NCBI GenBank assembly: GCA_012720075.1
Contig: JAAXZE010000030.1
Location: forward strand, 24,734 to 88,733
Origin: Clostridia bacterium
Lineage (GTDB): Bacteria > Bacillota > Peptococcia > Peptococcales > BICA1-8
Length of the DNA: 64,000 nucleotides
Direction of reading: 5' to 3'
Positions 14,015-40,692 of the stretch are shown piece after piece (positions within the stretch are counted from its first letter, which is position 1; every line of letters starts with the position of its first letter). Below the pieces are notes generated by a model that made no database searches, was not told where the DNA came from, and was given only the letters and a program-made list of their open reading frames with translations. Made by a program: the position numbers and the translations under genes.

Positions 14015-14032
14015 AAAAGTCTCCCCAGAATA

Positions 14033-14061
14033 TTGACAGAATAAAATCGTAATATTAAGCT
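14033..14061 (+). promoter_or_regulatory. possible promoter upstream of the C-A-B composite and argS
   Basis: Perfect TTGACA, 17 nt, weak TAAGCT. If real, the argS 5' UTR is about 340 nt of repeat modules. Confidence 0.3.
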
Positions 14062-14094
14062 AAAGGATATTGGATGGCAATTATATAATGTAAT

Positions 14095-14127
14095 AAGGTT
14101 AAGGTTTCACTTCGCTAGGTTAAGGTA
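14095..14127 (+). repeat. Family C block (GGTTAAGG..TTCGCT-TCGCTAGGTTAAGG)
   Basis: AAGGTTAAGGTTTCACTTCGCTAGGTTAAGGTA. Confidence 0.8.
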
Positions 14128-14153
14128 ATTGTGATATTGGGTATACATTAGAC

Positions 14154-14350
14154 AATGTATCCGATGAAAGTAGGTCTTTCGGGATGCATCAGCTTATATG
14201 CAAAATGCATGATGCATCCGATGAACGCCAATTAAAATTGATGCATCCGAAAAATATTACTTAAAAGATGATGCATCCTTTAAGCTAAACCTAGATGCAG
14301 ATGGGTCAGAGATAGTTTAACATTCATGAGATACATCCCAAAAAGTTTCC
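14154..14350 (+). repeat. Family A element, full copy (GATGCATC-rich imperfect palindrome, about 195 bp)
   Basis: Four exact GATGCATC boxes. Ends are inverted: ATGTATCCGATGAAAG at the 5' end, CATTCATGAGATACATCCC at the 3' end. About 88% identical by eye to the inverted copy at 17985-18190. Confidence 0.85.
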
Positions 14351-14358
14351 TTAAACCT

Positions 14359-14394
14359 AGTCACACTTACGCACTAACCCACTTACACACTTAA
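14359..14394 (+). repeat. Family B array (CACACTWA 8-mers) abutting the argS RBS
   Basis: AGTCACACTTACGCACTAACCCACTTACACACTTAA, then AATTGAGGTG and ATG. Confidence 0.8.
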
Positions 14395-14410
14395 TAATTG
14401 AGGTGTTGAA

Positions 14411-16087
14411 ATGAGTATTGTAGAAAAATTAAAAAATAATATCAAAGAGCGGATTATTAATGCCCTTGAATTAAACAGGGCGGAAGGCAAGCTGAATTTT
14501 AGTGAAATTCCCTCTTTTGTTTTGGAGGTTCCCCGGGAAAAGGCCCATGGCGATTTCGCCGCCAATGTTGCCATGCTGATGGCCAAAGAGGCCAAAATGA
14601 ATCCTCGGGCTATAGCCCAATTAATAGTCGACAAACTTTCATTAGAAGGAACCTGGGTGGAAAAGGTTGAAATTGCCGGACCGGGATTTATAAATTTTTA
14701 TTTGGATTTCCGGTGGCTTTATGATGTTTTGCCTTTGGTAGAAGAACAGGACGAGGATTACGGTTCCAGTTATGTAGGGCAAGGAACCAAAGTACAGGTT
14801 GAGTTTGTCAGTGCCAATCCTACCGGTCTCTTACATATGGGAAATGCCCGTGGGGCAGCTTTAGGTGATACTTTGGCCAATCTTTTAAAGAAAGCGGGCT
14901 AATCGGTGACCAAAGAATTATATTTTAATGATGCCGGCAATCAGATAGAAAACTTCGGCAAATCTTTGGAAGCCAGGTTTTTGCAGCAACTAGGATATGA
15001 TGTTCCTTTTCCTGAAGAGGGCTATCATGGGGAAGACATTATCGATACCGTAAAGAGAATTATTGAAAGGGACGGTCGGGTCTATTTAGAAATGGACCCC
15101 GAAGAACGGAGAAAGAAGCTGACTGAAATAGCCCTTGAGGAAAAAATTGCGGCAATAAAAGCCGCTTTGGAAAACTTCGGCGTCATTTATGATGTTTGGT
15201 TCAGTGAGAGTACTTTGCATCAATCAGGGGCCATTGATAAGGTTATTCAAGAATTAAAGGAAAAAGATTTAGTATATGAACATGAGGGGGCCTTGTGGTT
15301 CCGCTCCAGTCGTTTTGGGGCCGATGATAAAGATGAGGTAGTCGTCCGTTCCAACGGAGTGCCTACTTATTTTGCAGCCGATATTGCCTACCATAAAAAC
15401 AAATTTGAGCGGGGATTTGATTGGGTTATCAATATTTGGGGCGCTGACCACCATGGTCATGTTGCCAGGATGAAAGGTGCTTTGGAGGCAGTTGGCTATG
15501 ACCCCGACAAATTAACGGTTATACTGATGCAATTGGTTCGTCTTTTCCGGGGCGGGGATATTGTGAGAATGTCCAAGCGGACCGGCCAGTATGTCACTTT
15601 AACCGAATTGGTTGAAGAAGTAGGCAAAGATGCCGCCAGGTACTTCTTTGTAATGCGCAATCCCGACAGCCACCTGGACTTTGACCTGGATTTGGCTAAA
15701 CAGGAATCTTCGGAAAACCCTGTCTACTATGTTCAATATGCCCATGCCAGGATTTGCAGCATCTTAAAGTCCATAGGCCAAGAACAGCCGATGGCAGCCA
15801 ATACCAGGCTCGATCTTTTAAAAGAACCGGCCGAATTGGAATTGCTTAGAAAAATCGCCGATTTGCCTGATGAAATAGCTCAAGCGGCCAAAGCTTTGGA
15901 ACCCCATCGTATTGCCAGGTATGCCCACGATTTGGCCGGAGCTTTTCATACCTTTTATAACAGTTGTCGTGTACTGACTGATGATCAAGAGTTAAGGGAT
16001 GCCCGGCTGGTATTGGTTAATGCAACCAGGATTACCCTCCGCAACGTCTTAACCCTCTTAGGAGTCAGTGCTCCCGAAAGAATGTAA
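14411..16087 (+). pseudogene. argS: arginine--tRNA ligase interrupted by one in-frame TAA (14900-14902)
   Basis: ORFs 14411..14902 and 14906..16087 share one frame. Junction reads [23 protein letters not shown], where ArgS normally has Gly-Tyr-x-Val. HMGNARG (HIGH) and MSKR (KMSK) motifs are present. Confidence 0.85.
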
Positions 16088-16126: not shown

Positions 16127-16169
16127 AGAGTGTACAAGCTGTTTTCAGTTTGTATACTCTACTTTTTTG
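16127..16169 (+). terminator. intrinsic terminator after argS
   Basis: 11-bp stem AGAGTGTACAA/TTGTATACTCT with one G-T pair, 11-nt loop, then ACTTTTTTG. Confidence 0.7.
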
Positions 16170-16192
16170 TGGTATAAACTAGCTATATATGC

Positions 16193-16221
16193 TTGACAGT
16201 ACAATTGCAGAAAGATAGAAT
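16193..16221 (+). promoter_or_regulatory. sigma-A-type promoter for pyrG
   Basis: TTGACA, 17 nt, TAGAAT. Confidence 0.75.
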
Positions 16222-16226
16222 TGTAA

Positions 16227-17885
<1,659 letters not shown>

Positions 17886-29607: not shown

Positions 29608-29960
29608 GGGATGGCATTATGGCTTTGGGGTTAAAGAATCGGTCTGCTTGACGGCTAAAAGACCAATTTTTCTGGACCGCATGACGTCTTCTAAGCAAAA
29701 TTATAGGTCAGCATGACGTCTGCCGGGAAAACTTTTCCGTCAGCTTTTGTAATTCATTAAAATTAGATTTTTCGGTCGCTTCTTCCCCGGATAGCACACT
29801 GTTAACTGTATAAATTAAGGACCGACCCAGGGAATTAGCCTATAAGACGTCACACCGTCCTGCATTTTAACCCCAGAGCCGTCACACCGACCAAAAATTT
29901 AACCCGTAAGCCGTCATACCGACCTAAAAAATAACCCGAAAGGCATAATATCGGCCTGCA
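29608..29960. repeat. Family J inverted array (left arm about 29608-29745, right arm about 29815-29960; right arm has a 32-33 bp period)
   Basis: Left arm: TTGACGGCT, CGCATGACGTCTTCT, GGTCAGCATGACGTCTGCC. Right arm: GACGTCACACCGTCC..., then GTCACACCGACCAAAAATTTAACCCGTAAGCC, GTCATACCGACCTAAAAAATAACCCGAAAGGC and ATAATATCGGCCTGCAAAATAACCC, with cores at 29848, 29881, 29913 and 29945. Confidence 0.8.
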
Positions 29961-29992
29961 AAATAACCCATATAGGCCATAAGCACTCCCTC

Positions 29993-30021
29993 TTGACTCA
30001 TAAAAATAAAGAATATATAAT
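29993..30021 (+). promoter_or_regulatory. sigma-A-type promoter for rpmE
   Basis: TTGACT, 17 nt, TATAAT. Lies immediately downstream of the family J right arm. Confidence 0.8.
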
Positions 30022-30062
30022 GTAATAAGTGTTTTGATACCGATGGAAAGAGGTGAACCCGA

Positions 30063-30263
30063 ATGAAAGAAAATATTCATCCAAAATATGGTGTTGCTAA
30101 GGTTATTTGCGCCTGTGGTAATGAATTTGAAACCGGCTCTACTAAAAAGGAGTTAAGGGTTGAAATTTGTTCCAAGTGTCACCCTTATTTTACAGGAAAA
30201 CAGCGTACTGTTGCAGCTGCCGGTCGGGTAGAAGCATTTAAGAAAAAACATGGCATTCAATAA
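30063..30263 (+). CDS. rpmE: 50S ribosomal protein L31
   Basis: [10 protein letters not shown]-terminus with CxC..CxxCH zinc motif. Strong promoter and terminator. Confidence 0.95.
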
Positions 30264-30275
30264 AAGCATTTAATT

Positions 30276-30301
30276 CTGCCGACACTTGTCGGCAGTTTTT
30301 T
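30276..30301 (+). terminator. intrinsic terminator after rpmE
   Basis: Stem CTGCCGAC/GTCGGCAG, 4-nt loop, TTTTTTG. Confidence 0.85.
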
Positions 30302-30470
30302 GTTTATAACAATAGGAATGTTTTTATGCAAGCATACCAGGCAATTATATTTTTTTATTGGACTAAAAAAATTTTTTGTTTTTTTAATAAAAAAAGAAGG
30401 TATTTTTTGTTGTTTAGCAAATATTAAAATTAATTTTCTTTAACCCATTAATTGGATTTGGCTTCAAACA

Positions 30471-30500
30471 TTGACTCACAGCAAAGTTGTCTGTTATGCT
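30471..30500 (+). promoter_or_regulatory. candidate extended -10 promoter for the mrp cluster
   Basis: TTGACT, 18 nt including TGT, then TATGCT. About 190-nt AT-rich leader. Confidence 0.45.
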
Positions 30501-30695
30501 ATATTTGGTTTTTATCTTTTTTTTACCGGCCATGTTCCCAAGCTGGTTTTTTTCTTATTCGGGACAGGCATTTAAATAGATTTTTTATAATTTTATTTTA
30601 TTTATTTGGTGTGAAGGGAGGTAATATTTTATTTTTTCTTGCTGTAAAAAATTTTACAATAATTTAAAAACAACTTTATTTAGGTGGTAATGCGG

Positions 30696-31268
30696 ATGAA
30701 AAAAGTAAACAATTCTATTGGATCATCTAAAATAAAACACTGCATCGTTTTATCATTGGTTTTAATGGCTTTCTGGCTTTTATTGTCCGGAAAGACAGAA
30801 ATAAAATATTTATCGATGGGTGTGGCTACGGTATTGGTTACTGTCTGGGCCACATTACCCCTATTGCGCATACCTTCCGAGGATGGCAAAAAGTATTTTT
30901 ATGCTTTTGATTTTCCTTTTATAAAATATGCCCTTTACTGGATTTATTTATCTAAAGAAATTGCAAAAGCCAGTATTGATGTTGCCAAAATAGTGTTAGA
31001 CCCTAAACTTCCAATTAATCCTCAGGTTGTTCAATTCAAGCGGCCTATGGATAATCCTTTGGCCCATGTAACCTTAGCTAACTCCATTACTCTGACTCCC
31101 GGAACAATTACTATGGATATCGATAACGGGGTATATACAATTCATGCCCTCAGTGATGGTGCGGCAGAAGGTTTGGAAAACGGACAAGCTGAAATGATGC
31201 AACGGGTCAGCGCTGTTTTCGGCGAGAATCAGGAAGGCAGTTATAAAGAAAGGGGGCATGTCAAGTGA
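30696..31268 (+). CDS. mnhE: Na+/H+ antiporter subunit E (MrpE/MnhE, MbhA-like)
   Basis: MnhE-like membrane protein. First gene of an E-F-G-B-C-D ordered cluster. Confidence 0.7.
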   Translation: MKKVNNSIGSSKIKHCIVLSLVLMAFWLLLSGKTEIKYLSMGVATVLVTVWATLPLLRIPSEDGKKYFYAFDFPFIKYALYWIYLSKEIAKASIDVAKIVLDPKLPINPQVVQFKRPMDNPLAHVTLANSITLTPGTITMDIDNGVYTIHALSDGAAEGLENGQAEMMQRVSAVFGENQEGSYKERGHVK

Positions 31269-31540
31269 CCATGGATCACTTTTTTATGGCTTTAATAGTG
31301 GGAATAGGCATAGTAATTTTTGCTATGATGTTTCGTGTTTTTCAGGGACCCAGTGTCTATGACAGATTAAATGGTCTGGGAGTAATCGGTGCCGACACAA
31401 TACTGTTGCTAATTCTCATTGGTTTTATTGACAAGCGCCCCGATATGTATGCCGATATATCTATTTCGTATGCCATATTGGGTTTTATCAGCTTAGTTGT
31501 CATAGCTAAATATGTTGGAAGGAAGGGGGATGCGGAATGA
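31265..31540 (+). CDS. mnhF: antiporter subunit F (MrpF/MnhF)
   Basis: 91-aa three-helix membrane protein. Overlapping starts and stops suggest translational coupling. Confidence 0.7.
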   Translation: MTMDHFFMALIVGIGIVIFAMMFRVFQGPSVYDRLNGLGVIGADTILLLILIGFIDKRPDMYADISISYAILGFISLVVIAKYVGRKGDAE

Positions 31541-31839
31541 TTAGCACTATTATTGCTATAATTTTTCTTTTGGCAGGTTTTTTCTTTATAGCCGTAGCTG
31601 CCATTGGAGTCCTACGCCTTCCGGATTTTTATTCCCGTTTACACGCCTCAGGTAAAAGTGAAACATTGGGTATGATGCTCTGTTTTACCGGTTTAGCTAT
31701 CTATGAGGGACTCAGTATTACCAGTGTGAAATTTTTGATCATAGCTTTCTTTATACTTTTTGCTAATCCCATTGGTACCCATATTATTTGTCGGGAAGCT
31801 TACAGATCGGGTCTTAAACCGTGGACGAAGGGGGATTAG
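31537..31839 (+). CDS. mnhG: antiporter subunit G (MrpG/MnhG)
   Basis: 100 aa. LRLPDFYSRLHA motif is typical of MnhG. Confidence 0.75.
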   Translation: MISTIIAIIFLLAGFFFIAVAAIGVLRLPDFYSRLHASGKSETLGMMLCFTGLAIYEGLSITSVKFLIIAFFILFANPIGTHIICREAYRSGLKPWTKGD

Positions 31840-31843
31840 GCAA

Positions 31844-32086
31844 ATGCATGTTTTTATTATTGAAACAATTCTCTTGCTATTGTTAATTGCGACCGGTATT
31901 TTTGCTTTAACTTCAAAGGACCTTTTAGCTTCCATCATCCTCTTTGGTGGCTTTAGCTATTTTGCGGTGCTTACCTATTTGATTGTCGGAGCGGCAGACG
32001 TGGCCTTTACCGAGGCAGTGGTTGGCGTCGTTTCAACTATCTATCTGGTCACCGCCCTCAATAAACTTAAGAGGAGGTGCCGCTAA
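31844..32086 (+). CDS. DUF4040 / MrpA-C-terminal-like (MbhD-like) membrane subunit
   Basis: 80-aa hydrophobic product from ATG 31844. The ORF-track start 31760 overlaps mnhG implausibly. Confidence 0.6.
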   Translation: MHVFIIETILLLLLIATGIFALTSKDLLASIILFGGFSYFAVLTYLIVGAADVAFTEAVVGVVSTIYLVTALNKLKRRCR

Positions 32087-32374
32087 ATGAAAAAATATGC
32101 AGCATTGTTAACTATCGCTTTAGCTTTTGTATTTTTTTATGCAGCCGGTGATTTGCCTCAGATAGGAGATAAAGATTCACCTGCCAATGTTCATGTTTCT
32201 CCCAGGTATATCGAAGATGCCATGGAGGAAATCGGTTCACCTAACCTTGTTACCGGTGTTCTGGCTGACTACAGGGGCTATGATACTTTAGGTGAAACTA
32301 CTGTTATCTTTATAGCCGGTATTGCAACCGCTATGATCTTACGGGGCAAAAAGGAAGGTGACGATGCAGAATGA
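32087..32374 (+). CDS. MnhB-related small subunit (MbhE-like)
   Basis: NLVTGVLADYRGYDTLGE motif is typical of the MnhB family. Confidence 0.6.
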   Translation: MKKYAALLTIALAFVFFYAAGDLPQIGDKDSPANVHVSPRYIEDAMEEIGSPNLVTGVLADYRGYDTLGETTVIFIAGIATAMILRGKKEGDDAE

Positions 32375-32820
32375 AACCGGGTTTCATTAGTTTTGTTTTA
32401 GATACCGCCTTTAGGGTCCTTGTACCTTTTACCCTTGTCTATGGGGTGTACGTTTTGATTTTCGGTGAATATGGCCCTGGCGGAGGATTCCAAGCCGGAA
32501 CAGCTCTGTCTGTCGGCGTAATTTTGTCCAAGCTTATTCAAGGAAAGGAAAAAGCCCAGTTTAACATCAGAGGCAGCATGGCTTTAATTCTGGCAGGTAT
32601 AGGTACTTTTATTTATGCTGCTGTAGGTTTTACCACGATGATCTTTGGCGGGAAGTTTTTAGAATATGAATTTTTGCCTATTCCGGTACACGAACTGACT
32701 GAATTGCATGTCTGGGGCATTTTAGGAATAGAAATCGGCGTAACCATTTGCGTCATGACTACCTTTATTGCTATTTTTTCAGCCTTAACAGGAGAGGAGG
32801 GGCCTTTTAAAGATGCTTGA
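32371..32820 (+). CDS. mnhB: antiporter subunit B (MrpB/MnhB)
   Basis: 149-aa polytopic protein with GPGGGFQAG motif. Confidence 0.7.
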   Translation: MKPGFISFVLDTAFRVLVPFTLVYGVYVLIFGEYGPGGGFQAGTALSVGVILSKLIQGKEKAQFNIRGSMALILAGIGTFIYAAVGFTTMIFGGKFLEYEFLPIPVHELTELHVWGILGIEIGVTICVMTTFIAIFSALTGEEGPFKDA

Positions 32821-33178
32821 CTTTCTAACAAACTCTCTTATTTACTGGCTTTTTGCCATACTCTTCTTGTTAGGATTTTTCGGGATTTTGGCCAATAACA
32901 ATTTTATGAAAAAACTAATGGCCATGAACATTATGCAGGTGGCAGTTATCATATTTTTCTTGCTTTTGGGTCAAAAACTAGGAGGAACTTTACCTGTTAT
33001 TTGGGGCACTGATTATGTTGTCGAACATTATATTAATCCACTTCCCCATGCTTTAATGCTGACGGCTATCGTTGTTAGCTTAAGCACTACCGGTGTTGCT
33101 TTGGCTCTGATGATGAGGATCCAAGACCATTACGGAGATTTGGAGGAAGATGAAATTCTACGGAGGATGAACAAATGA
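32813..33178 (+). CDS. mnhC: antiporter subunit C (MrpC/MnhC, NuoK-like)
   Basis: 121 aa, NuoK-like, with conserved-looking LTAIVV segment. Confidence 0.75.
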   Translation: MLDFLTNSLIYWLFAILFLLGFFGILANNNFMKKLMAMNIMQVAVIIFFLLLGQKLGGTLPVIWGTDYVVEHYINPLPHALMLTAIVVSLSTTGVALALMMRIQDHYGDLEEDEILRRMNK

Positions 33179-34659
33179 GAGAACAATTTCCGTCATTAAT
33201 TGTTGTTGTGCCCCTGGCGGCTGCCCTCCTATCTCCTTTTATAGCCTATTTTTCAAAAACTCTGGTCAGATGGCTGGCAATAGCTGCGCTTTTGGTCTCC
33301 AATATAAGTGCAGTAGCTGTATTGATACGTGTCCTAAATGGCGGTGTCTGGCACTATCATTTTGGCGGATGGGCACCACCGTGGGGCATTGAATATGTTT
33401 TAGATCCACTGTCCGCAACCATGGCTATTTTAGTATCCTTTGTTGCGCTTGTCGTGGCCATTTATTCAGGACCATATGTCAAGGATTACGCAAAGCTAAA
33501 AGCGGGAATTTTTTATTCGCTGTTTTTGCTATTATCTGTTGGTCTAGTAGGGATGATGATTACCGGTGACGTCTTTAACCTCTATGTATTTTTGGAGATT
33601 TCTTCTCTCGCCGGTTATACTTTGATAGCTGCCGGAGGTAATAAGGCGACGGTAGCGGCATTCAGGTATTTATTAGTTGGAACTATCGGCGCTTCTTTTT
33701 ACCTTTTAGGTATTGGGTTTTTATATGCGGTTACCGGCTCTCTAAATATGGTGGATTTAGCCGAAAGGCTTCTCCCGTTATTGGATTCAAGGGTCGTGAT
33801 TGTAGCTATTGTAATGATTATGTTGGGATTTGGCATTAAAATGGCAGCTTTTCCCCTTCATGGATGGCAGCCTGATGCTTACACCTATTCCCATCCGGCG
33901 GCAACACCGTTAATCGCCGGAGTAATGGGTAAAGTACCGGCTTATGCCGCCCTAAGATTTTTCTTTTTCATCATGCCTGCTACTGCCGGTCCGGTCCATA
34001 AAGCTTTACAGGTAATGGGCATATTGGCTGCAGCGGGGATTATCATTGGTTCCGTTATGGCTATAGCCCAGAAAGATTTTAGAAGGATGCTGGCATACTC
34101 CAGTGTGGCTCAGATAGGCTATATCGTGGTTGGTTTAGCCATTGGCAATTCTTTGGCTCTCATTGGGGGAGTGCTGCACATTATTAACCATGCTTTCATG
34201 AAAAGCTGTTTGTTTGTGGTCGCCGGCGGCATAAGGTGGCGTACCGGTGAATACCGAATAGATAACTATATGGAACTTAATAAAAAAATGCCGTTAACTA
34301 TGGGAGCATTGATTATAGCCGCTCTTTCCATGGTTGGTCTTCCCCCGACAGCGGGCTTCTTCAGTAAATGGTATCTGGTATTGGGTGCCATTGAAGAGGG
34401 CATGTGGTTTTATGTGGCTATAATAATTATCAGTAGTTTATTAAACGCTATTTATTTCTTCAGGGTTCTTGAAAATATTTATATGAAAAAAGCCGAAAAA
34501 GAATATAAGGATATCTATAAAGGCAGAAAATTGGAGTTGCCTTTACAGATGTTAGTTCCTGTTGTTGTTTTAGGTATAGGTATTTTAGTCTTAGGCATCT
34601 TCAATGAAAGTCTTGTTACACAGGTAATACAGTTTGCTATTCCAGGGGGTGGACTATAG
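33175..34659 (+). CDS. mnhD: antiporter-like subunit D (MrpD/NuoN family), copy 1
   Basis: 494-aa proton-conducting membrane transporter fold (PLHGWQPDAY, HIINHAFMKS). Confidence 0.8.
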   Translation: MREQFPSLIVVVPLAAALLSPFIAYFSKTLVRWLAIAALLVSNISAVAVLIRVLNGGVWHYHFGGWAPPWGIEYVLDPLSATMAILVSFVALVVAIYSGPYVKDYAKLKAGIFYSLFLLLSVGLVGMMITGDVFNLYVFLEISSLAGYTLIAAGGNKATVAAFRYLLVGTIGASFYLLGIGFLYAVTGSLNMVDLAERLLPLLDSRVVIVAIVMIMLGFGIKMAAFPLHGWQPDAYTYSHPAATPLIAGVMGKVPAYAALRFFFFIMPATAGPVHKALQVMGILAAAGIIIGSVMAIAQKDFRRMLAYSSVAQIGYIVVGLAIGNSLALIGGVLHIINHAFMKSCLFVVAGGIRWRTGEYRIDNYMELNKKMPLTMGALIIAALSMVGLPPTAGFFSKWYLVLGAIEEGMWFYVAIIIISSLLNAIYFFRVLENIYMKKAEKEYKDIYKGRKLELPLQMLVPVVVLGIGILVLGIFNESLVTQVIQFAIPGGGL

Positions 34660-36177
34660 ATGGCACCGGAAATTGTACTCGATTACAGGCCCTTATGGGC
34701 AGTCTTGATCTCCCTTGTGGCGGCAGTACTGATTCTTTTGACCGGAGAAAAAAATAGAAATCTCCGGGAAACCTGGACCATATTGGCGGCCTTTGGCAAA
34801 GTAGCCATAGTATTTTCCATGCTACCCATGGTTTTGGGAGGACAGGTGCTGGAAAGCGCTCCTCTCTATGTTGCTAAAGGAATTGTTCTTCAGTTGAGGG
34901 CCGATACGGCGGGAATGCTGTTTGCAGCTTTAGCCTCCTTTTTATGGGTGATAACATCTTTTTATTCCATCGGCTATATGCGGGGTCATCACGAAAAGCA
35001 CCAAACAGGCTATTTTGCCGCATTTGCCGTTTGTTTATCGGCAACTATGGGTATAGCCTTTGCCGCTAACCTTCTGACATTCTTTGTTTTTTATGAAATC
35101 TTGACTATTGCAACCTATCCTCTGGTAATTCATAAACGTAATCCGGAGGCAATCAGGTCCGGTCGAAAATATTTGGCTTATACCTTAATTTCCGGACAGC
35201 TGTGTTTAATTGCCATTATCTGGACTTATGTTGTTGTAGGTCATGGCAACTTCCAGGCCGGCGGGTTTTTGACACTGGACCACGCTTCCCGCGGGATGCT
35301 GCAGTTTATGTTTTTCATGATGAGTATTGGTGCAGCCGTTAAAGCCGGCGTAATGCCCTTGCATGGCTGGTTGCCTGACGCTATGGTTGCTCCTACTCCC
35401 GTTAGTGCCTTACTACATGCCGTGGCCGTAGTTAAAGCCGGAGCCTTTGGTATTTTAAGGGTAGTTGGTTATGTTTTTGGACCCGAACTGTTAAAACAAA
35501 TCGGAACCGCTGAGGTTTTAGCCTGGTTTGCAGCTTTTACCATCATAGCATCCTCTCTGATTGCAATGAATCAGGATAATTTAAAAAGGAGATTGGCTTT
35601 CTCTACCGTTGGTCAGTTGTCTTATGTGGTATTGGGAGTATCACTGTTATCTCCCCTCGGTTTGTTAGGTGGCATGTTTCATATTATTGCCCATGCTTTC
35701 ATGAAGATTACCCTCTTCTTCTGTGCCGGCGCCATTTATGTCACAACTCATAAAGAAAATATCAGTGAGATGCATGGAATCGGCAAGCAGATGCCTATAA
35801 CCATTGGAGCCTTTACCATAGCTTCTTTAGGTATTGCCGGGGTTCCCTTTATTGTAGGTTTCATCAGCAAATGGAACATTGCATTGGGCGCATTACAGAC
35901 AGGACAATGGCTTTATATCGTTGTCTTAATTGCCAGTGCCATGTTGGCTTCTACCTATTTGCTGCCGTTGGGTTATCTGGGCTTCTTTAAGAAATCGGAC
36001 AAATTTACTCATTACGGTGAAGCCCGCAAGGATATGCTGATACCTATTGTAATAACTGCCACCTTTTCCATAGTGTTAGGTATTTTACCCAACTTTGGAG
36101 CGCATTTTTATGATCTGGCAGCAATGTCGGCGCAGAGCATTATCGATGGTATCCAGTTGATAGGGGGAGGGTGGTAA
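34660..36177 (+). CDS. antiporter-like subunit (MrpD/NuoM family), copy 2
   Basis: 505 aa. PLHGWLPDAM and HIIAHAFMK motifs. Confidence 0.8.
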   Translation: MAPEIVLDYRPLWAVLISLVAAVLILLTGEKNRNLRETWTILAAFGKVAIVFSMLPMVLGGQVLESAPLYVAKGIVLQLRADTAGMLFAALASFLWVITSFYSIGYMRGHHEKHQTGYFAAFAVCLSATMGIAFAANLLTFFVFYEILTIATYPLVIHKRNPEAIRSGRKYLAYTLISGQLCLIAIIWTYVVVGHGNFQAGGFLTLDHASRGMLQFMFFMMSIGAAVKAGVMPLHGWLPDAMVAPTPVSALLHAVAVVKAGAFGILRVVGYVFGPELLKQIGTAEVLAWFAAFTIIASSLIAMNQDNLKRRLAFSTVGQLSYVVLGVSLLSPLGLLGGMFHIIAHAFMKITLFFCAGAIYVTTHKENISEMHGIGKQMPITIGAFTIASLGIAGVPFIVGFISKWNIALGALQTGQWLYIVVLIASAMLASTYLLPLGYLGFFKKSDKFTHYGEARKDMLIPIVITATFSIVLGILPNFGAHFYDLAAMSAQSIIDGIQLIGGGW

Positions 36178-36179
36178 GA

Positions 36180-36416
36180 ATGAGTACTAAAAAAGTAATT
36201 ACTATTGCTTCACTTGTGCTTATACTCTCGATAATTGTAGAAGTACTATTTGTTCACCCCCATGCGGAGTTTTGGTGGCACGAGGTAATCGGCTTTGATA
36301 TGATTTTTGGTTTTTTGGGCTGCCTGCTATTGATAGTAGGAGCCAAGACCTTTGGGAAGGAATTTGTTCAACGGCCTGAAGACTATTACGCAGGAGGTGA
36401 AGAAGACCATGACTAA
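36180..36416 (+). CDS. small membrane protein of the mrp cluster
   Basis: 78 aa, two helices, acidic tail. Its 8-nt overlap with the next gene suggests coupling. Confidence 0.5.
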   Translation: MSTKKVITIASLVLILSIIVEVLFVHPHAEFWWHEVIGFDMIFGFLGCLLLIVGAKTFGKEFVQRPEDYYAGGEEDHD

Positions 36417-38127
36417 TTTACATCCAGGGTTGATTTTAATCATAGGCGGTTTGTTAGCGGGGATATTGCCTAAACGCCTCCGCCAGTTGGTTATGGTTTC
36501 GGCACCTGCTTTAGCTATTTTCACTGTTTTCAACACTCCGTTAGGAACGGTATGGACCATCCCTTTTATTAATGATTTAGAACTTACGCTGCTGAAAGTG
36601 GATCGTTTATCTTGGGTTTTTTCTCTAATTTTCACCATCATAGCCTTCTTGGGCAATATTTATGCTTTGCATAATGAAAACCGCGGAGAGGCAACGGCCA
36701 GCCTTCTTTATGCCGGGAGTTCCCTGGGCGTGGTTTTCGCCGGTGATTGGGTAACCCTCATTTTCTTCTGGGAACTGATGGCTGCTTCCTCGGTCTTTCT
36801 GATTTGGTATCGGGGTACTGCTCAGTCCCGTAAAGCCGGCTTTAGATATTTATTGATCCACTTGTTTGGGGGAAATCTGCTGTTAGCCGGGATATTCCTC
36901 AAAGTATATCAAGGTTTGCCGGAAATAACCAGTCTTACCGGAACCGGAGATGCCGCCTTTTGGTTGATTTTACTGGGGGTTAGCATTAACGCTGCTATTC
37001 CGCCTCTTCATTCCTGGTTAACCGATGCTTATCCGGAAGGGACTATTACCGGAAGTGTATTCCTGAGTTCCTTTACAACTAAAGTTGCAGTTTATTGTTT
37101 GCTGAGAATTTTCCCTGGCACCACCTTACTACTATGGGCCGGATGCATCATGGCTTTATATGGGGTAATTTTCGCCATATTGGAAAATGATATCCGTCGC
37201 CTTCTGGCTTATCACATAGTCAGTCAGGTCGGCTTCATGGTTGCCGGTGTCGGAATGGGTACGGAGTTAGCCATTAATGGTGCGACTGCCCATGCTTACA
37301 GCCACATTCTATATAAGTCCCTGCTCTTTATGGGAGCCGGTGCTGTAATTTATGCCACGGGGTACAGAAAGCTTACCGAATTGGGCGGTTTATATAAGAA
37401 AATGCCCTGGGTTACTTTGTTTTTTGCCATTGCCGCATTCTCCATTTCCGGGATACCTATTTTCAACGGGTTTATCAGTAAGTCCATGACTATTTCGGCT
37501 GCGGCTGAAGCCCATTTGCCAACGGCAGAGTTATTGTTGTACTTGGCAAGCATAGGTACCTTCCTCTCTATTGCTTTAAAACTGCTTTACTTTATGTTCT
37601 TTGGAAAAGATAAAGGTTTAGAGACAGTTAAGATACCAATGAATATGAACGTAGCTATGGCCGGAGGAGCATTGCTGTGTACCCTGTACGGGGTTGTACC
37701 CGACCTTCTCTATAGATATTTGCCGTATCCCGTGGATTACCATCCCTATTCCTTAAACCATATTATTGATACGGTGCAGTTATTAACTGCGGCTTTGATT
37801 GTGTTCTGGATTTTCTTACCCAAATTAAAAACCCACGATACTATTTCCCTGGACACCGATTGGGTCTTAAGAAAGCCTTTCAAAGCAACGGTTTATGGTT
37901 TAGTGAACATTGTCTGTTATATCCGGGAGTTTTCGGCAGCCAAATTACTGCTGGCTTTAAAGAGCACCTTGCCTTTCTTTGCTAATCCTGTTAAATGGGC
38001 TGCTCAAACAGCGGCAGGTCCTAAAGAACTATATGATGAGGATCGTTATCGTTTCCCCATTGGAATGACGGTAATGATGAGCATTGTTGTGTTCCTGGTT
38101 ACATTCTCATATATTGTGTTTGTTTAA
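36409..38127 (+). CDS. antiporter-like subunit (MrpA/D, NuoL family), copy 3
   Basis: About 570 aa. PPLHSWLTDAYPEG and AHAYSHILYKS motifs. ATG 36409 preferred over ORF-track 36352. Confidence 0.8.
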   Translation: MTNLHPGLILIIGGLLAGILPKRLRQLVMVSAPALAIFTVFNTPLGTVWTIPFINDLELTLLKVDRLSWVFSLIFTIIAFLGNIYALHNENRGEATASLLYAGSSLGVVFAGDWVTLIFFWELMAASSVFLIWYRGTAQSRKAGFRYLLIHLFGGNLLLAGIFLKVYQGLPEITSLTGTGDAAFWLILLGVSINAAIPPLHSWLTDAYPEGTITGSVFLSSFTTKVAVYCLLRIFPGTTLLLWAGCIMALYGVIFAILENDIRRLLAYHIVSQVGFMVAGVGMGTELAINGATAHAYSHILYKSLLFMGAGAVIYATGYRKLTELGGLYKKMPWVTLFFAIAAFSISGIPIFNGFISKSMTISAAAEAHLPTAELLLYLASIGTFLSIALKLLYFMFFGKDKGLETVKIPMNMNVAMAGGALLCTLYGVVPDLLYRYLPYPVDYHPYSLNHIIDTVQLLTAALIVFWIFLPKLKTHDTISLDTDWVLRKPFKATVYGLVNIVCYIREFSAAKLLLALKSTLPFFANPVKWAAQTAAGPKELYDEDRYRFPIGMTVMMSIVVFLVTFSYIVFV

Positions 38128-38606: not shown

Positions 38607-38639
38607 ATGCCAGTCGCGGACAGGAAGGTCGGTGAAATA

Positions 38640-39707
38640 ATGTTTGACAAACTACAACATCTCGAAGATAGATATGAAGAATTAAATGCTCTGATGAGTA
38701 ATCCTGAGATAATTAACAATCCTGTTGAACTGCAAAAACATGCCAAAGCCCAGGCTGAATTGACTGATATAGTTGAAACTTTCCGTAACTATAAAAAAGT
38801 TGTAAACGAATTGGATGAAGCCAAAGCTATGTTAGATGAAAAACTTGAGCCGGAAATGAAAGAAATGGTCCAGCAGGAGATTGAAGAATTAGAAGAAAAA
38901 AGGGAAAAACTGGAGGAAGAATTAAAGATCTTGCTCTTACCTAAAGACCCCAATGATGAAAAGAACGTTATCATGGAAATCAGGGCAGGAGCCGGCGGCG
39001 AGGAGGCCGGTCTTTTTGCCGGTGACTTGTACCGGATGTATACCCGTTACGCTGAAAATAAAGGTTGGAAAACCGAGTTAATGAGTGCCCATTATTCCGA
39101 TCTGGGAGGTTTTAAAGAAGTCATATTTTTAGTTCAGGGGCAGGGTGCCTATAGTAAGCTGAAGTTTGAAAGCGGTGTGCACAGGGTACAACGGGTTCCA
39201 ACCACGGAATCTGGGGGCAGGATCCATACCTCAACGGCTACGGTAGGCGTTTTACCGGAAGCTGAGGAAGTAGACGTGCAGATTGATCCCAATGATTTAA
39301 GAATAGATGTCTTTTGTTCCAGTGGTCCGGGTGGACAGTCGGTTAATACTACCCAATCGGCCGTCCGGGTCACTCATATTCCAACCGGTTTGGTAGTATC
39401 CTGTCAGGACGAAAAGTCCCAACACAAAAACAAGGATAAGGCTTTAAAGGTTTTGAGGGCCAGACTTTTGGAAAGGGCTCAAAGCGAACAGGCCGGTGAA
39501 CTGGCTCAAGCAAGAAAAAGTCAGGTCGGTACAGGGGACAGAAGTGAGAGAATTCGCACTTATAATTTCCCCCAAGGTCGGGTAACGGACCATCGGATAG
39601 GTTTAACCCTGCATAAACTGGACCAAGTTCTTTTGGGGGAATTGGATGAAATAATAGATGCTTTAATAACTACCGATCAAGCTGAAAAATTAAAGCAAGT
39701 GGAATAG
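38640..39707 (+). CDS. prfA: peptide chain release factor 1
   Basis: MFDKLQ N-terminus, [12 protein letters not shown] (PxT) and SGPGGQSVN (GGQ) motifs. Confidence 0.95.
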
Positions 39708-39709
39708 TA

Positions 39710-39791
39710 TTAATGGAGAGTTGAGAATTGAGAATGGAGAATTATTAAAAATAATTGAAAGTGGTGAATGGAGAACTGAGAGAGAGTTGAT
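39710..39791 (+). repeat. Family G array (long) between prfA and prmC
   Basis: TTAATGGAGAGTTGAGAATTGAGAATGGAGAATTATT...GTGGTGAATGGAGAACTGAGAGAGAGTTGAT. Confidence 0.85.
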
Positions 39792-39819
39792 ATATAGACC
39801 TTGAGCAATAGCGAAAGGA

Positions 39820-40692
39820 ATGACAGATTTGATGAAAAACCAAAATAAGCCGCAAACTGTTCAGCAATGGTTACAGTGGGCGGCTATTTTTTTAGGAACG
39901 GAAAAAAGAATAGAAGCAGAGCTGTTATTAGCTAAGGCCACAGGTTTTTCCCGGGCTAAATTACTGGCTTATCCCGAATTAAAATTAGCTGACAATGAGG
40001 CAGCACGGTTCAGGAAGCTTATTGAACTCAGGAAAAATGACGAGCCTTTGCAGTATCTGCTAGGGCAGACCAGCTTTATGGGGTTGGATTTTATAGTTAA
40101 TAAACATGTTTTAATACCCCGCTCCGATACCGAAGTTCTGGTAGAGCACACTCTAAACTTAGCGGCAGAGACGGAAGGCCCATTATCTATTCTGGATTTA
40201 TGCACCGGAAGCGGTGCCATAGCCATAAGTCTTGCCAAATATCTTCCTCAGGCTTTAGTAACCGCCGTGGATATTTCACCGGCAGCTTTGGAGGTAGCCA
40301 AAAGCAATGCCCGACTGAATGGCGTTGCGGATCGAGTTCAATTTCTCCAGGGTGATTTATTTGCTCCCGTAGTGGAGAATAGTTTTAATATAATAACCGC
40401 TAACCCTCCTTATATTTCCTCGGCTGAAATGGCAGACCTTCCCGGTGATGTAAAAAAAGAGCCTGCTCTTGCCCTTTGGGGCGGAACGGATGGATTGGAT
40501 TTTTATCGTAGAATAACCGGCGAAGGCAAAAAGTTTTTGGCAAATCACGGATGGTTAATCATGGAAATCGGCTGGAAACAAGGGCGGAAAGTTAAAGAGA
40601 TGCTTATTAACAACGGGTTTACCCATTGCCAGGTTATCCGGGATTGGGCCGGGCATGACCGGGTTGTTTCCGGCAAAATACATCATTTTTGA
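39820..40692 (+). CDS. prmC: release factor glutamine N5-methyltransferase
   Basis: ILDLCTGSG SAM motif and ITANPPY catalytic motif. Start may instead be 39832. Confidence 0.9.
   Translation: MTDLMKNQNKPQTVQQWLQWAAIFLGTEKRIEAELLLAKATGFSRAKLLAYPELKLADNEAARFRKLIELRKNDEPLQYLLGQTSFMGLDFIVNKHVLIPRSDTEVLVEHTLNLAAETEGPLSILDLCTGSGAIAISLAKYLPQALVTAVDISPAALEVAKSNARLNGVADRVQFLQGDLFAPVVENSFNIITANPPYISSAEMADLPGDVKKEPALALWGGTDGLDFYRRITGEGKKFLANHGWLIMEIGWKQGRKVKEMLINNGFTHCQVIRDWAGHDRVVSGKIHHF

What the first reader, a model, noticed from the sequence alone, without database searches (positions are those of the whole stretch)
14900..14902. In-frame TAA inside argS at a conserved position, in an otherwise intact gene
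The two argS ORFs (14411..14902 and 14906..16087) are in the same frame and separated only by TAA. The junction reads LLKKAG[18 protein letters not shown]. From memory, ArgS proteins have Gly-Tyr/His-x-Val there, so a single change from TAY to TAA explains it.
The HIGH-like and KMSK-like motifs, the RBS and a good terminator (16127-16169) are all intact. This does not look like an old decaying pseudogene.
I see no second argS in the window. ArgS is essential, so there are four options: sequencing or assembly error, a very recent lesion complemented elsewhere, ochre suppression, or readthrough.
Basis: partly seen in the sequence, partly recalled or inferred. Interest (0 to 1): 0.6.

Follow-up and report, generated by a model that had tools for sequence, protein, structure and literature searches.

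The report
Two isolated nonsense codons, argS and pyrG
Two neighbouring essential genes (arginyl-tRNA synthetase and CTP synthase) each carry one premature TAA stop made by a single base change, in otherwise well-preserved genes; nothing indicates a special decoding mechanism, so this is most likely a sequence error or a very recent private mutation.

Summary
In detail: argS (14411..16087) has an in-frame TAA at 14900-14902. In 119 related loci the argS site is Tyr 86, Phe 18, Trp 6, Asn 1, and the pyrG site is Glu 63/63. No relative has a mid-gene stop. The closest relatives have TAT and GAA, so each lesion is one transversion (T>A, G>T).

The two stops replace different amino acids. TAA is the commonest genuine terminator in the window (28/59 genes, including argS itself). 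RF1 and PrmC are intact. No tRNA, RNA family or unusual RNA structure was found. All other genes in the window are intact. Both broken genes keep every invariant residue apart from the stop and one V>I, and they show no relaxed selection.

Code reassignment, conserved programmed readthrough, old pseudogenes and a local burst of random errors are all rejected. What remains is two clean point lesions. They are most likely consensus errors or mutations private to the sequenced clone or molecule; a smaller chance is real lesions tolerated through an ochre suppressor or a second gene copy elsewhere. No other sequence of this species exists in any searched collection, so only the reads can decide. 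Interest is low.

The parts
14411..16087 (+). argS (arginine--tRNA ligase), 558 codons including one internal stop; ends in a genuine TAA
   Evidence: Full-length alignment, up to 89% identical, to proteins named arginyl-tRNA synthetase that carry PF03485/PF00750/PF05746; translation
14900..14902 (+). in-frame TAA at argS codon 164; relatives have Tyr (TAT in the closest ones), so a T>A change at the third codon position
14906..14908 (+). GTG 3 nt after the stop, with a moderate SD-like match upstream (AAAGAAAG); the only conceivable re-initiation point for a C-terminal ArgS fragment
   Evidence: -7.7 kcal/mol; real starts have median -10.1, background -2.9
14400..14405 (+). argS ribosome-binding site GAGGTG
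16127..16170 (+). argS intrinsic terminator (15-pair stem, T-run)
16193..16221 (+). pyrG promoter-like site, TTGACA-17-TAGAAT (11 of 12 matches)
16254..17885 (+). pyrG (CTP synthase) with one internal stop; the true start is probably TTG 16272, preceded by GGGAGGGG
   Evidence: E=1.5e-206 to solved CTP synthases; translation; start context
16737..16739 (+). in-frame TAA in pyrG at the position of E. coli CtpS Glu155; relatives have Glu 63/63 (GAA in the closest ones), so a G>T change at the first codon position
38607..39707 (+). prfA (RF1, reads UAA/UAG), intact, with PTT (PxT form) and GGQ motifs; relevant as a negative control for recoding
39820..40692 (+). prmC (release-factor glutamine methyltransferase), intact

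Best explanation
The window carries two independent single-base nonsense substitutions, TAT>TAA in argS and GAA>TAA in pyrG, in two adjacent, otherwise well-preserved essential genes. TAA is an ordinary stop codon in this organism. The lesions are not a decoding feature. They are most likely errors in the deposited consensus: wrong base calls, or variants taken from a low-coverage or damaged template. Next most likely, they are mutations private to the sequenced clone or molecule that selection has not yet removed. In the living population both genes are expected to read Tyr and Glu at these codons. Shown: the two stops, their single-nucleotide origin, their absence from all relatives, the intactness of everything else, and normal use of TAA as a terminator. 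Inferred: that the cause is an error or a transient variant rather than a tolerated lesion.
For: Each stop is one nucleotide from the codon of the closest relatives. The stops replace different amino acids, Tyr and Glu. No relative has a stop at these sites or anywhere mid-gene: 0/111 argS, 0/60 pyrG, 320 neighbouring orthologs clean. ArgS deviates at 0/62 invariant columns; PyrG deviates only at the stop and one V>I of 188. The window lineage shows no significant excess of amino-acid changes: N/S 32/124 against 20/123 in the sister lineage, p=0.17, and 38/119 in intact control genes. So the lesions have no evolutionary age. TAA terminates 28 of 59 genes, argS included, and the internal stops lie in TAAT and TAAG, the usual terminator contexts. 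RF1 and PrmC are intact. Downstream RNA structure is unremarkable, z from -1.05 to +0.80. The window has no tRNA and no Rfam family. TAA-terminated genes are not enriched for backup stops. The literature lists sequencing errors and short-lived polymorphisms among the sources of in-frame stops in bacterial records (PMC7918605).
Against: The rest of the 64-kb window looks like a high-quality assembly: no frameshift or other broken gene among about 60 genes and no ambiguous bases. A general error-prone assembly is therefore not evident. If only two random substitutions occurred, the chance that both are nonsense is about 0.002. The chance that two random sites in 64 kb fall within 1.84 kb is about 0.06. 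A local burst of random errors is rejected: about 7.8 amino-acid changes would be expected at invariant columns, and 1 was seen, P=0.004. So the error model needs either ascertainment (the window was picked because of the stop) or a non-random source. No reads or second assembly could be examined.
Confidence: 0.6

Rival explanations
1. The stops are real and are tolerated because the genome encodes, outside this window, an ochre suppressor tRNA (anticodon UUA) or otherwise has raised UAA readthrough. Full-length ArgS and CTP synthase are then made at a reduced level.
For: Both genes are essential, yet both are otherwise perfectly preserved, as expected if they still function. Two nonsense lesions with no accompanying missense damage is what relaxed selection against stops specifically would give. 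A Tyr-inserting suppressor would restore wild-type ArgS. In E. coli CtpS the equivalent residue tolerates replacement: E155K can be purified and is described as defective only in CTP feedback inhibition (PMC4126345). Belinky et al. argue that some in-frame stops in bacterial genes are read through (PMC7918605).
Against: The window has no tRNA. TAA is the most used terminator (28/59), and TAA genes have no more backup stops than TGA or TAG genes. The stop contexts TAAT and TAAG are those of normal terminators. Only 2 of about 61 genes are affected, and they are adjacent rather than scattered. Glu at the pyrG site is invariant in 63/63 relatives. RF1 is normal. An efficient ochre suppressor is costly, because UAA is read by both release factors and ends about half of the genes here.
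Confidence: 0.13
2. The stops are real, very recent inactivating mutations of this locus, and the cell lives on second copies of argS and pyrG elsewhere in the genome, for example a recent segmental duplication or an acquired copy.
For: It would explain how two essential genes can be broken at once. Adjacency fits a duplicated argS-pyrG segment. The absence of decay fits recency.
Against: This locus is the ancestral, syntenic one: his operon ... lysE-argS-pyrG-femX-alr ... rho, as in relatives. The window holds no paralog. No relative was seen with two HSPs that would indicate duplicated argS or pyrG nearby. It needs a duplication plus two nonsense hits and no other change, all within a very short time.
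Confidence: 0.08
3. The genes work as split proteins. Translation stops at TAA and re-initiates just downstream, and the two fragments assemble non-covalently.
For: In argS a GTG lies 3 nt after the stop, with a moderate SD-like match (-7.7 kcal/mol). Split and fragment-complemented class I synthetases are known from the literature (own knowledge, not tested here).
Against: In pyrG the next in-frame start is 15 codons downstream with a poor SD (-5.0). Using it would delete the conserved [14 protein letters not shown] segment. Both breaks lie inside folded catalytic domains, not at domain boundaries. No relative is split.
Confidence: 0.03
4. TAA has been reassigned to a sense codon, or is subject to conserved programmed recoding, in this organism.
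For: In-frame TAA at conserved positions in two essential genes.
Against: The stops align to two different amino acids. TAA ends 28/59 genes, argS included. RF1 is intact. The stops are not conserved in any of 119 related loci. No cis RNA structure was found. Only 2 genes are affected.
Confidence: 0.01

Closest known systems
In-frame stop codons in annotated bacterial genes: sequencing errors, short-lived nonsense polymorphisms, 'internal stop' pseudogene calls (Belinky et al. 2021, PMC7918605)
   Same: A single nonsense substitution in an otherwise conserved gene. There is no divergence around it, so it is evolutionarily very young. The same four candidate sources apply: annotation artefact, sequencing error, pseudogene, premature stop in a functional gene.
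   Different: Here two such stops lie in adjacent, universally essential genes. They are not shared with any other genome, whereas Belinky et al. kept only stops shared by two or more species in order to exclude errors.
Classical ochre (UAA) nonsense mutations suppressed by ochre suppressor tRNAs (E. coli supB/supC/supG type; own knowledge)
   Same: UAA arises by a single change from Tyr (UAU) and Glu (GAA) codons. Viability of an essential-gene ochre mutant would need such a suppressor.
   Different: No suppressor tRNA is visible, and TAA use as a terminator shows no adaptation. Natural, stably maintained ochre suppression is not documented for this clade.
Stop-codon reassignment in bacteria and phages (UGA>Trp code 4, UGA>Gly code 25, UAG/UGA recoding in phages)
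   Same: In-frame stop codons at conserved sense positions of essential genes.
   Different: The codon here is UAA. It corresponds to two different amino acids, remains the main terminator, occurs in only 2 genes, and RF1 is intact.
Naturally split aminoacyl-tRNA synthetases (for example two-piece LeuRS of Aquifex, split AlaRS of Nanoarchaeum; own knowledge)
   Same: Two consecutive ORFs together cover one synthetase.
   Different: Those splits are conserved, lie at tolerated boundaries, and each piece has its own start signals. Here the split is unique to this sequence, is a single point change, and lies inside the Rossmann fold.

Membership tests
Arginine--tRNA ligase (class I aaRS, ArgS) | Full-length similarity to ArgS with the Arg_tRNA_synt_N, tRNA-synt_1d and DALR_1 domains; HIGH-like and KMSK-like motifs | tested here: met
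   Colinear 558-residue alignment, 89% identity, to proteins carrying PF03485/PF00750/PF05746. HMGN at residue 142 and MSKR at residue 387.
CTP synthase (PyrG) | Full-length similarity to solved CTP synthases, covering the synthetase domain and the GATase domain | tested here: met
   E=1.5e-206 to 9kao and 7.5e-197 to E. coli 1s1m over residues 7-536. GICLGMQ, the probable GATase nucleophile motif (function from own knowledge), is present.
Stop-codon reassignment (alternative genetic code) | The in-frame stop aligns to one consistent amino acid across genes | tested here: not met
   Tyr/Phe/Trp in argS against invariant Glu in pyrG.
Stop-codon reassignment (alternative genetic code) | The reassigned codon is no longer used, or only rarely used, as a terminator | tested here: not met
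   TAA ends 28 of 59 genes, including argS.
Stop-codon reassignment (alternative genetic code) | Many genes carry the in-frame codon | tested here: not met
   Only 2 of about 61 genes in 64 kb.
Stop-codon reassignment (alternative genetic code) | Loss or alteration of the cognate release factor(s) | tested here: inconclusive
   RF1 is intact with PTT and GGQ, and PrmC is intact. RF2, which also reads UAA, is not in the window.
Stop-codon reassignment (alternative genetic code) | A tRNA with an anticodon cognate to the stop (UUA) | not testable with these tools
   The window has no tRNA gene, and the rest of the genome is unavailable.
Programmed readthrough or recoding (Sec/Pyl-like) | The stop is conserved at the same position in orthologs | tested here: not met
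   0/111 argS and 0/63 pyrG relatives have a stop there.
Programmed readthrough or recoding (Sec/Pyl-like) | A cis-acting RNA structure next to the stop | tested here: not met
   MFE z-scores of -1.05, +0.23, -0.67 and +0.80 for 91-nt windows; no Rfam hit.
Decaying pseudogene | Relaxed selection (raised N/S) and additional lesions such as frameshifts, further stops or lost motifs | tested here: not met
   One stop per gene and no frameshift. 0/62 and 1/188 deviations at invariant columns. N/S 0.26 against 0.16 in the sister lineage (p=0.17) and 0.32 in control genes. A lesion of zero age cannot be excluded.
Naturally split gene | The split is conserved in relatives, and the downstream part has its own start and RBS | tested here: not met
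   No relative is split. argS has GTG plus a moderate SD, but pyrG has no usable start.
Sequencing or consensus error | Reads or an independent assembly show a sense codon (TAT/TAC, GAA/GAG) | not testable with these tools
   No reads are available. No same-species sequence turned up in the genome, metagenome or protein collections.

The most novel reading that the evidence does not exclude
Both TAAs are real and fixed, and the organism keeps two essential genes alive through a natural ochre suppressor tRNA or strongly raised UAA readthrough encoded elsewhere, possibly on a mobile element, which would make the host dependent on it. This would be a natural case of essential-gene dependence on UAA suppression in a free-living Bacillota (Peptococcales-related) bacterium.
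Probability: 0.06. Interest if true: 0.7.

Novelty: not a real feature. Interest (0 to 1): 0.15.

Why it matters
If the stops are errors or private mutations, the practical point is annotation. argS and pyrG of this genome would be wrongly called pseudogenes, which would affect completeness and metabolic reconstructions; the record should be checked against its reads. If both stops proved real and fixed, two essential genes would depend on UAA suppression while UAA still ends half the genes. That would be a surprising natural example of tolerated ochre codons and worth experimental follow-up. The window gives no positive evidence for it.

Tried and rejected
1. Finding the same organism elsewhere, to see TAT versus TAA. 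Exact look-ups of both ArgS fragments, the PyrG C-terminal fragment and two intact neighbours found nothing. The best ArgS homolog is 89% identical and the best FemX 87%. The genome scan reached 82% at best. The metagenome junction pattern gave 0 hits, and the metagenome protein-guided scan reached 80% at best. This route led nowhere.

2. Code reassignment. Rejected: different amino acids at the two sites, TAA as the main terminator, RF1 intact.

3. Conserved programmed readthrough. Rejected: no relative has the stop, and there is no RNA structure or Rfam family.

4. Old pseudogene. Rejected by the invariant-column and relative-rate tests.

5. Local burst of random errors or hypermutation. Rejected: about 7.8 changes expected at invariant columns, 1 seen.

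6. Generally poor assembly. Not supported: all other genes are full length, with no frameshifts and no ambiguous bases.

7. Ribosomal bypass from GGC (14897) to the in-frame GGC at 14942. Considered from the sequence and rejected, because it would delete 15 residues that align colinearly with all relatives.

8. Split protein by re-initiation. Possible only for argS, not for pyrG.

9. Whole-codon replacement. Unlikely, since both stops are exactly one nucleotide from the relatives' codons.

10. The other same-frame ORF pairs in the window (hisD/hisB, the mrp subunits, atpD/atpC) are ordinary adjacent genes, not split genes.

Full report
OBSERVATION

ORFs 14411..14902 and 14906..16087 lie in one frame and are separated only by TAA at 14900-14902. 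The junction reads ...[20 protein letters not shown].... The product is ArgS. It aligns colinearly over all 558 residues, at up to 89% identity, with proteins named arginyl-tRNA synthetase that carry PF03485, PF00750 and PF05746.
- HIGH-like motif HMGN, 14834-14845
- KMSK-like motif MSKR, 15569-15580
- RBS GAGGTG, 14400-14405
- 15-pair terminator with T-run, 16127-16170

The window contains no second argS and no tRNA gene.

The next gene downstream, pyrG (CTP synthase, 16254..17885; E=1.5e-206 to solved CTP synthases), is interrupted in the same way. An in-frame TAA at 16737-16739 sits inside the invariant ...[13 protein letters not shown]... segment, 1837 bp from the argS stop. A six-frame scan for same-frame ORF pairs found no other split gene. 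The other pairs (hisD/hisB, the mrp subunits, atpD/atpC) are ordinary neighbouring genes.

COMPARISON WITH RELATIVES

Seventy-one genome loci and 42 metagenome loci encoding ArgS relatives were fetched, plus six contigs of the closest homologs. They come from Peptococcales/Clostridia MAGs of the BRH_c20a and BICA1-8 group (80-89% identity), and from Heliobacteria, Syntrophomonadaceae and others (about 60-65%). Synteny around the locus is conserved, from the his operon through lysE, argS, pyrG, femX, alr and on to rho, so this is the ancestral locus.

| Site | Residues in relatives | Codon in closest relatives | Change in window |
|---|---|---|---|
| argS codon 164 | Tyr 86, Phe 18, Trp 6, Asn 1 | TAT | T>A, third position |
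| pyrG stop codon | Glu 63/63 | GAA | G>T, first position |

No relative has a stop at either site, or anywhere else mid-gene: 0 of about 111 full-length argS and 0 of about 60 pyrG. Across 320 orthologs of the 20 surrounding genes, the only '*' characters were alignment artefacts. In-frame stops are therefore not a trait of this clade, and their base rate in these genes in public assemblies is below 1%.

IS TAA DECODED DIFFERENTLY HERE?

No evidence points that way.
- The two stops stand for different amino acids.
- TAA is the most common genuine terminator in the window (TAA 28, TGA 18, TAG 13 of 59 genes) and ends argS itself.
- The internal stops lie in TAAT and TAAG, the same tetranucleotides that most natural TAA terminators use here.
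- TAA-terminated genes have no more in-frame backup stops (11/28) than TGA (7/18) or TAG (6/13) genes.
- The window happens to include prfA (RF1) and prmC. Both give full-length domain matches, and RF1 keeps a PxT-type tripeptide (PTT) and GGQ.
- The 91-nt windows around and after each stop fold no better than shuffled sequence, with z from -1.05 to +0.80.
- Rfam finds nothing in the window.

ARE THE GENES DECAYING, OR IS THE SEQUENCE POOR?

Neither. ArgS matches the relatives at all 62 invariant columns. PyrG departs from 188 invariant columns only at the stop and at one conservative V>I.

In a three-taxon relative-rate test, the window lineage has 32 unique amino-acid changes against 124 synonymous ones in argS plus pyrG. 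The sister lineage has 20 against 123 (p=0.17). Four intact neighbouring genes in the window have 38 against 119. There is no significant relaxation, and N/S stays far below neutral.

All other genes in the 64-kb window give full-length Pfam matches or match their orthologs' lengths. The small genes in the ORF-poor gaps (rpmE, atpE, mrpF) are intact. There are no frameshifts and no ambiguous bases.

Only 4.4% of random substitutions in this coding sequence produce a stop. Two stops produced by a local burst of random errors would therefore imply about 46 substitutions in 3.3 kb and about 7.8 amino-acid changes at invariant columns. One is seen, so P=0.004. The lesions are two clean, isolated point changes.

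WHAT IT MOST LIKELY IS

Reassignment, conserved recoding, old pseudogenes and a dirty region are all excluded. The remaining question is whether the two bases are wrong in the record or truly present in a cell.

I could not test this. Exact look-ups of five window proteins or fragments found nothing. The closest ArgS and FemX homologs are 89% and 87% identical. A junction pattern with a free third base found nothing in metagenomes. The best related loci are 82% (genomes) and 80% (metagenomes) identical. No independent sequence of this species is available.

I judge consensus error, or a variant private to the sequenced clone or molecule, the most likely cause (about 0.6). Nonsense alleles of argS and pyrG should be lethal, they have no evolutionary age, and nothing in the window shows adaptation to UAA suppression. 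Belinky et al. (PMC7918605) list sequencing errors among four sources of in-frame stops in bacterial genes and find that such stops persist only on a polymorphism timescale.

The weak points of this reading are these. The rest of the window looks accurate. Two of two random changes being nonsense has probability about 0.002. Two random sites in 64 kb falling within 1.84 kb has probability about 0.06. Ascertainment softens the first figure, because the window was flagged for its stop. A shared low-coverage stretch or a single damaged template would explain the clustering.

RIVALS

(a) Real lesions rescued by an ochre suppressor or raised readthrough encoded elsewhere (about 0.13). A Tyr-inserting suppressor would restore wild-type ArgS. 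The pyrG site corresponds to E. coli CtpS Glu155, where E155K gives a purifiable enzyme described as defective in CTP-binding feedback inhibition (PMC4126345), so some replacements may be tolerated. Against this: TAA usage, stop contexts, backup stops, only two affected genes, and an invariant Glu.

(b) Very recent inactivation covered by second copies elsewhere (about 0.08). This is the syntenic ancestral locus, and the scenario needs several rare events in a short time.

(c) Split proteins through termination and re-initiation (about 0.03). argS has a GTG 3 nt after the stop with a moderate SD-like match (-7.7 kcal/mol against a median of -10.1 for real starts). pyrG has no usable start for 15 codons. 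Both breaks lie inside catalytic domains.

(d) Reassignment of TAA (about 0.01). The window itself refutes it.

A ribosomal bypass from GGC 14897 to GGC 14942 was considered. It was rejected because the skipped residues are conserved and colinear in all relatives.

NOVELTY AND VERDICT

It matches the known, ordinary category of isolated in-frame stops in bacterial genome records. No new decoding mechanism is supported. I file it as most likely not a real biological feature, with low interest (0.15).

The one reading that would be remarkable is natural dependence of two essential genes on UAA suppression, in an organism that still uses UAA as its main terminator. It has about 6% probability on present evidence. 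Read pile-ups at 14902 and 16737, a genome-wide tRNA scan for a UUA anticodon, and a count of in-frame TAA in conserved genes would settle it.

Noticed in passing
window 16737-16739: A second in-frame TAA lies in the adjacent essential gene pyrG, at the position of E. coli CtpS Glu155 (Glu in 63/63 relatives).
   Followed up: yes
window 16254-16275: The longest-ORF start of pyrG (ATG 16254) has a poor SD. A TTG at 16272, preceded by GGGAGGGG, gives MTKYIF... and a 537-codon gene, the length called in the closest relatives. This is probably the true start.
   Followed up: partly
window 38607-40692: prfA (RF1) and prmC lie in the window and are intact. The RF1 codon-recognition tripeptide reads PTT (PxT form), and GGQ is at residue 242.
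   Followed up: yes
window 14015-14410: The 396-nt non-coding leader upstream of argS gives no Rfam hit at gathering threshold, so no T-box was detected, although T-boxes are common upstream of aaRS genes in Bacillota (own knowledge). The more sensitive E-value threshold was not tried.
   Followed up: partly
window 29608-30056 and 30264-30683: Two ORF-free, AT-rich stretches of about 420-450 nt flank the small rpmE gene (30057-30263), between a radical-SAM gene and the mrp operon. No Rfam family was found and the function is unknown.
   Followed up: no
window 30684-38127: A large Mrp/Mbh-type multisubunit cation:proton antiporter-like cluster (MnhE, MnhF, MnhG, MbhD, MnhB, NuoK-like, and three Proton_antipo_M subunits) sits between rpmE and prfA.
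   Followed up: partly
all collections: The species is absent from the genome, metagenome and protein collections: best ArgS 89% and best FemX 87% identity. Its nearest relatives are uncultured Peptococcales/Clostridia MAGs (BRH_c20a and BICA1-8 group).
   Followed up: yes
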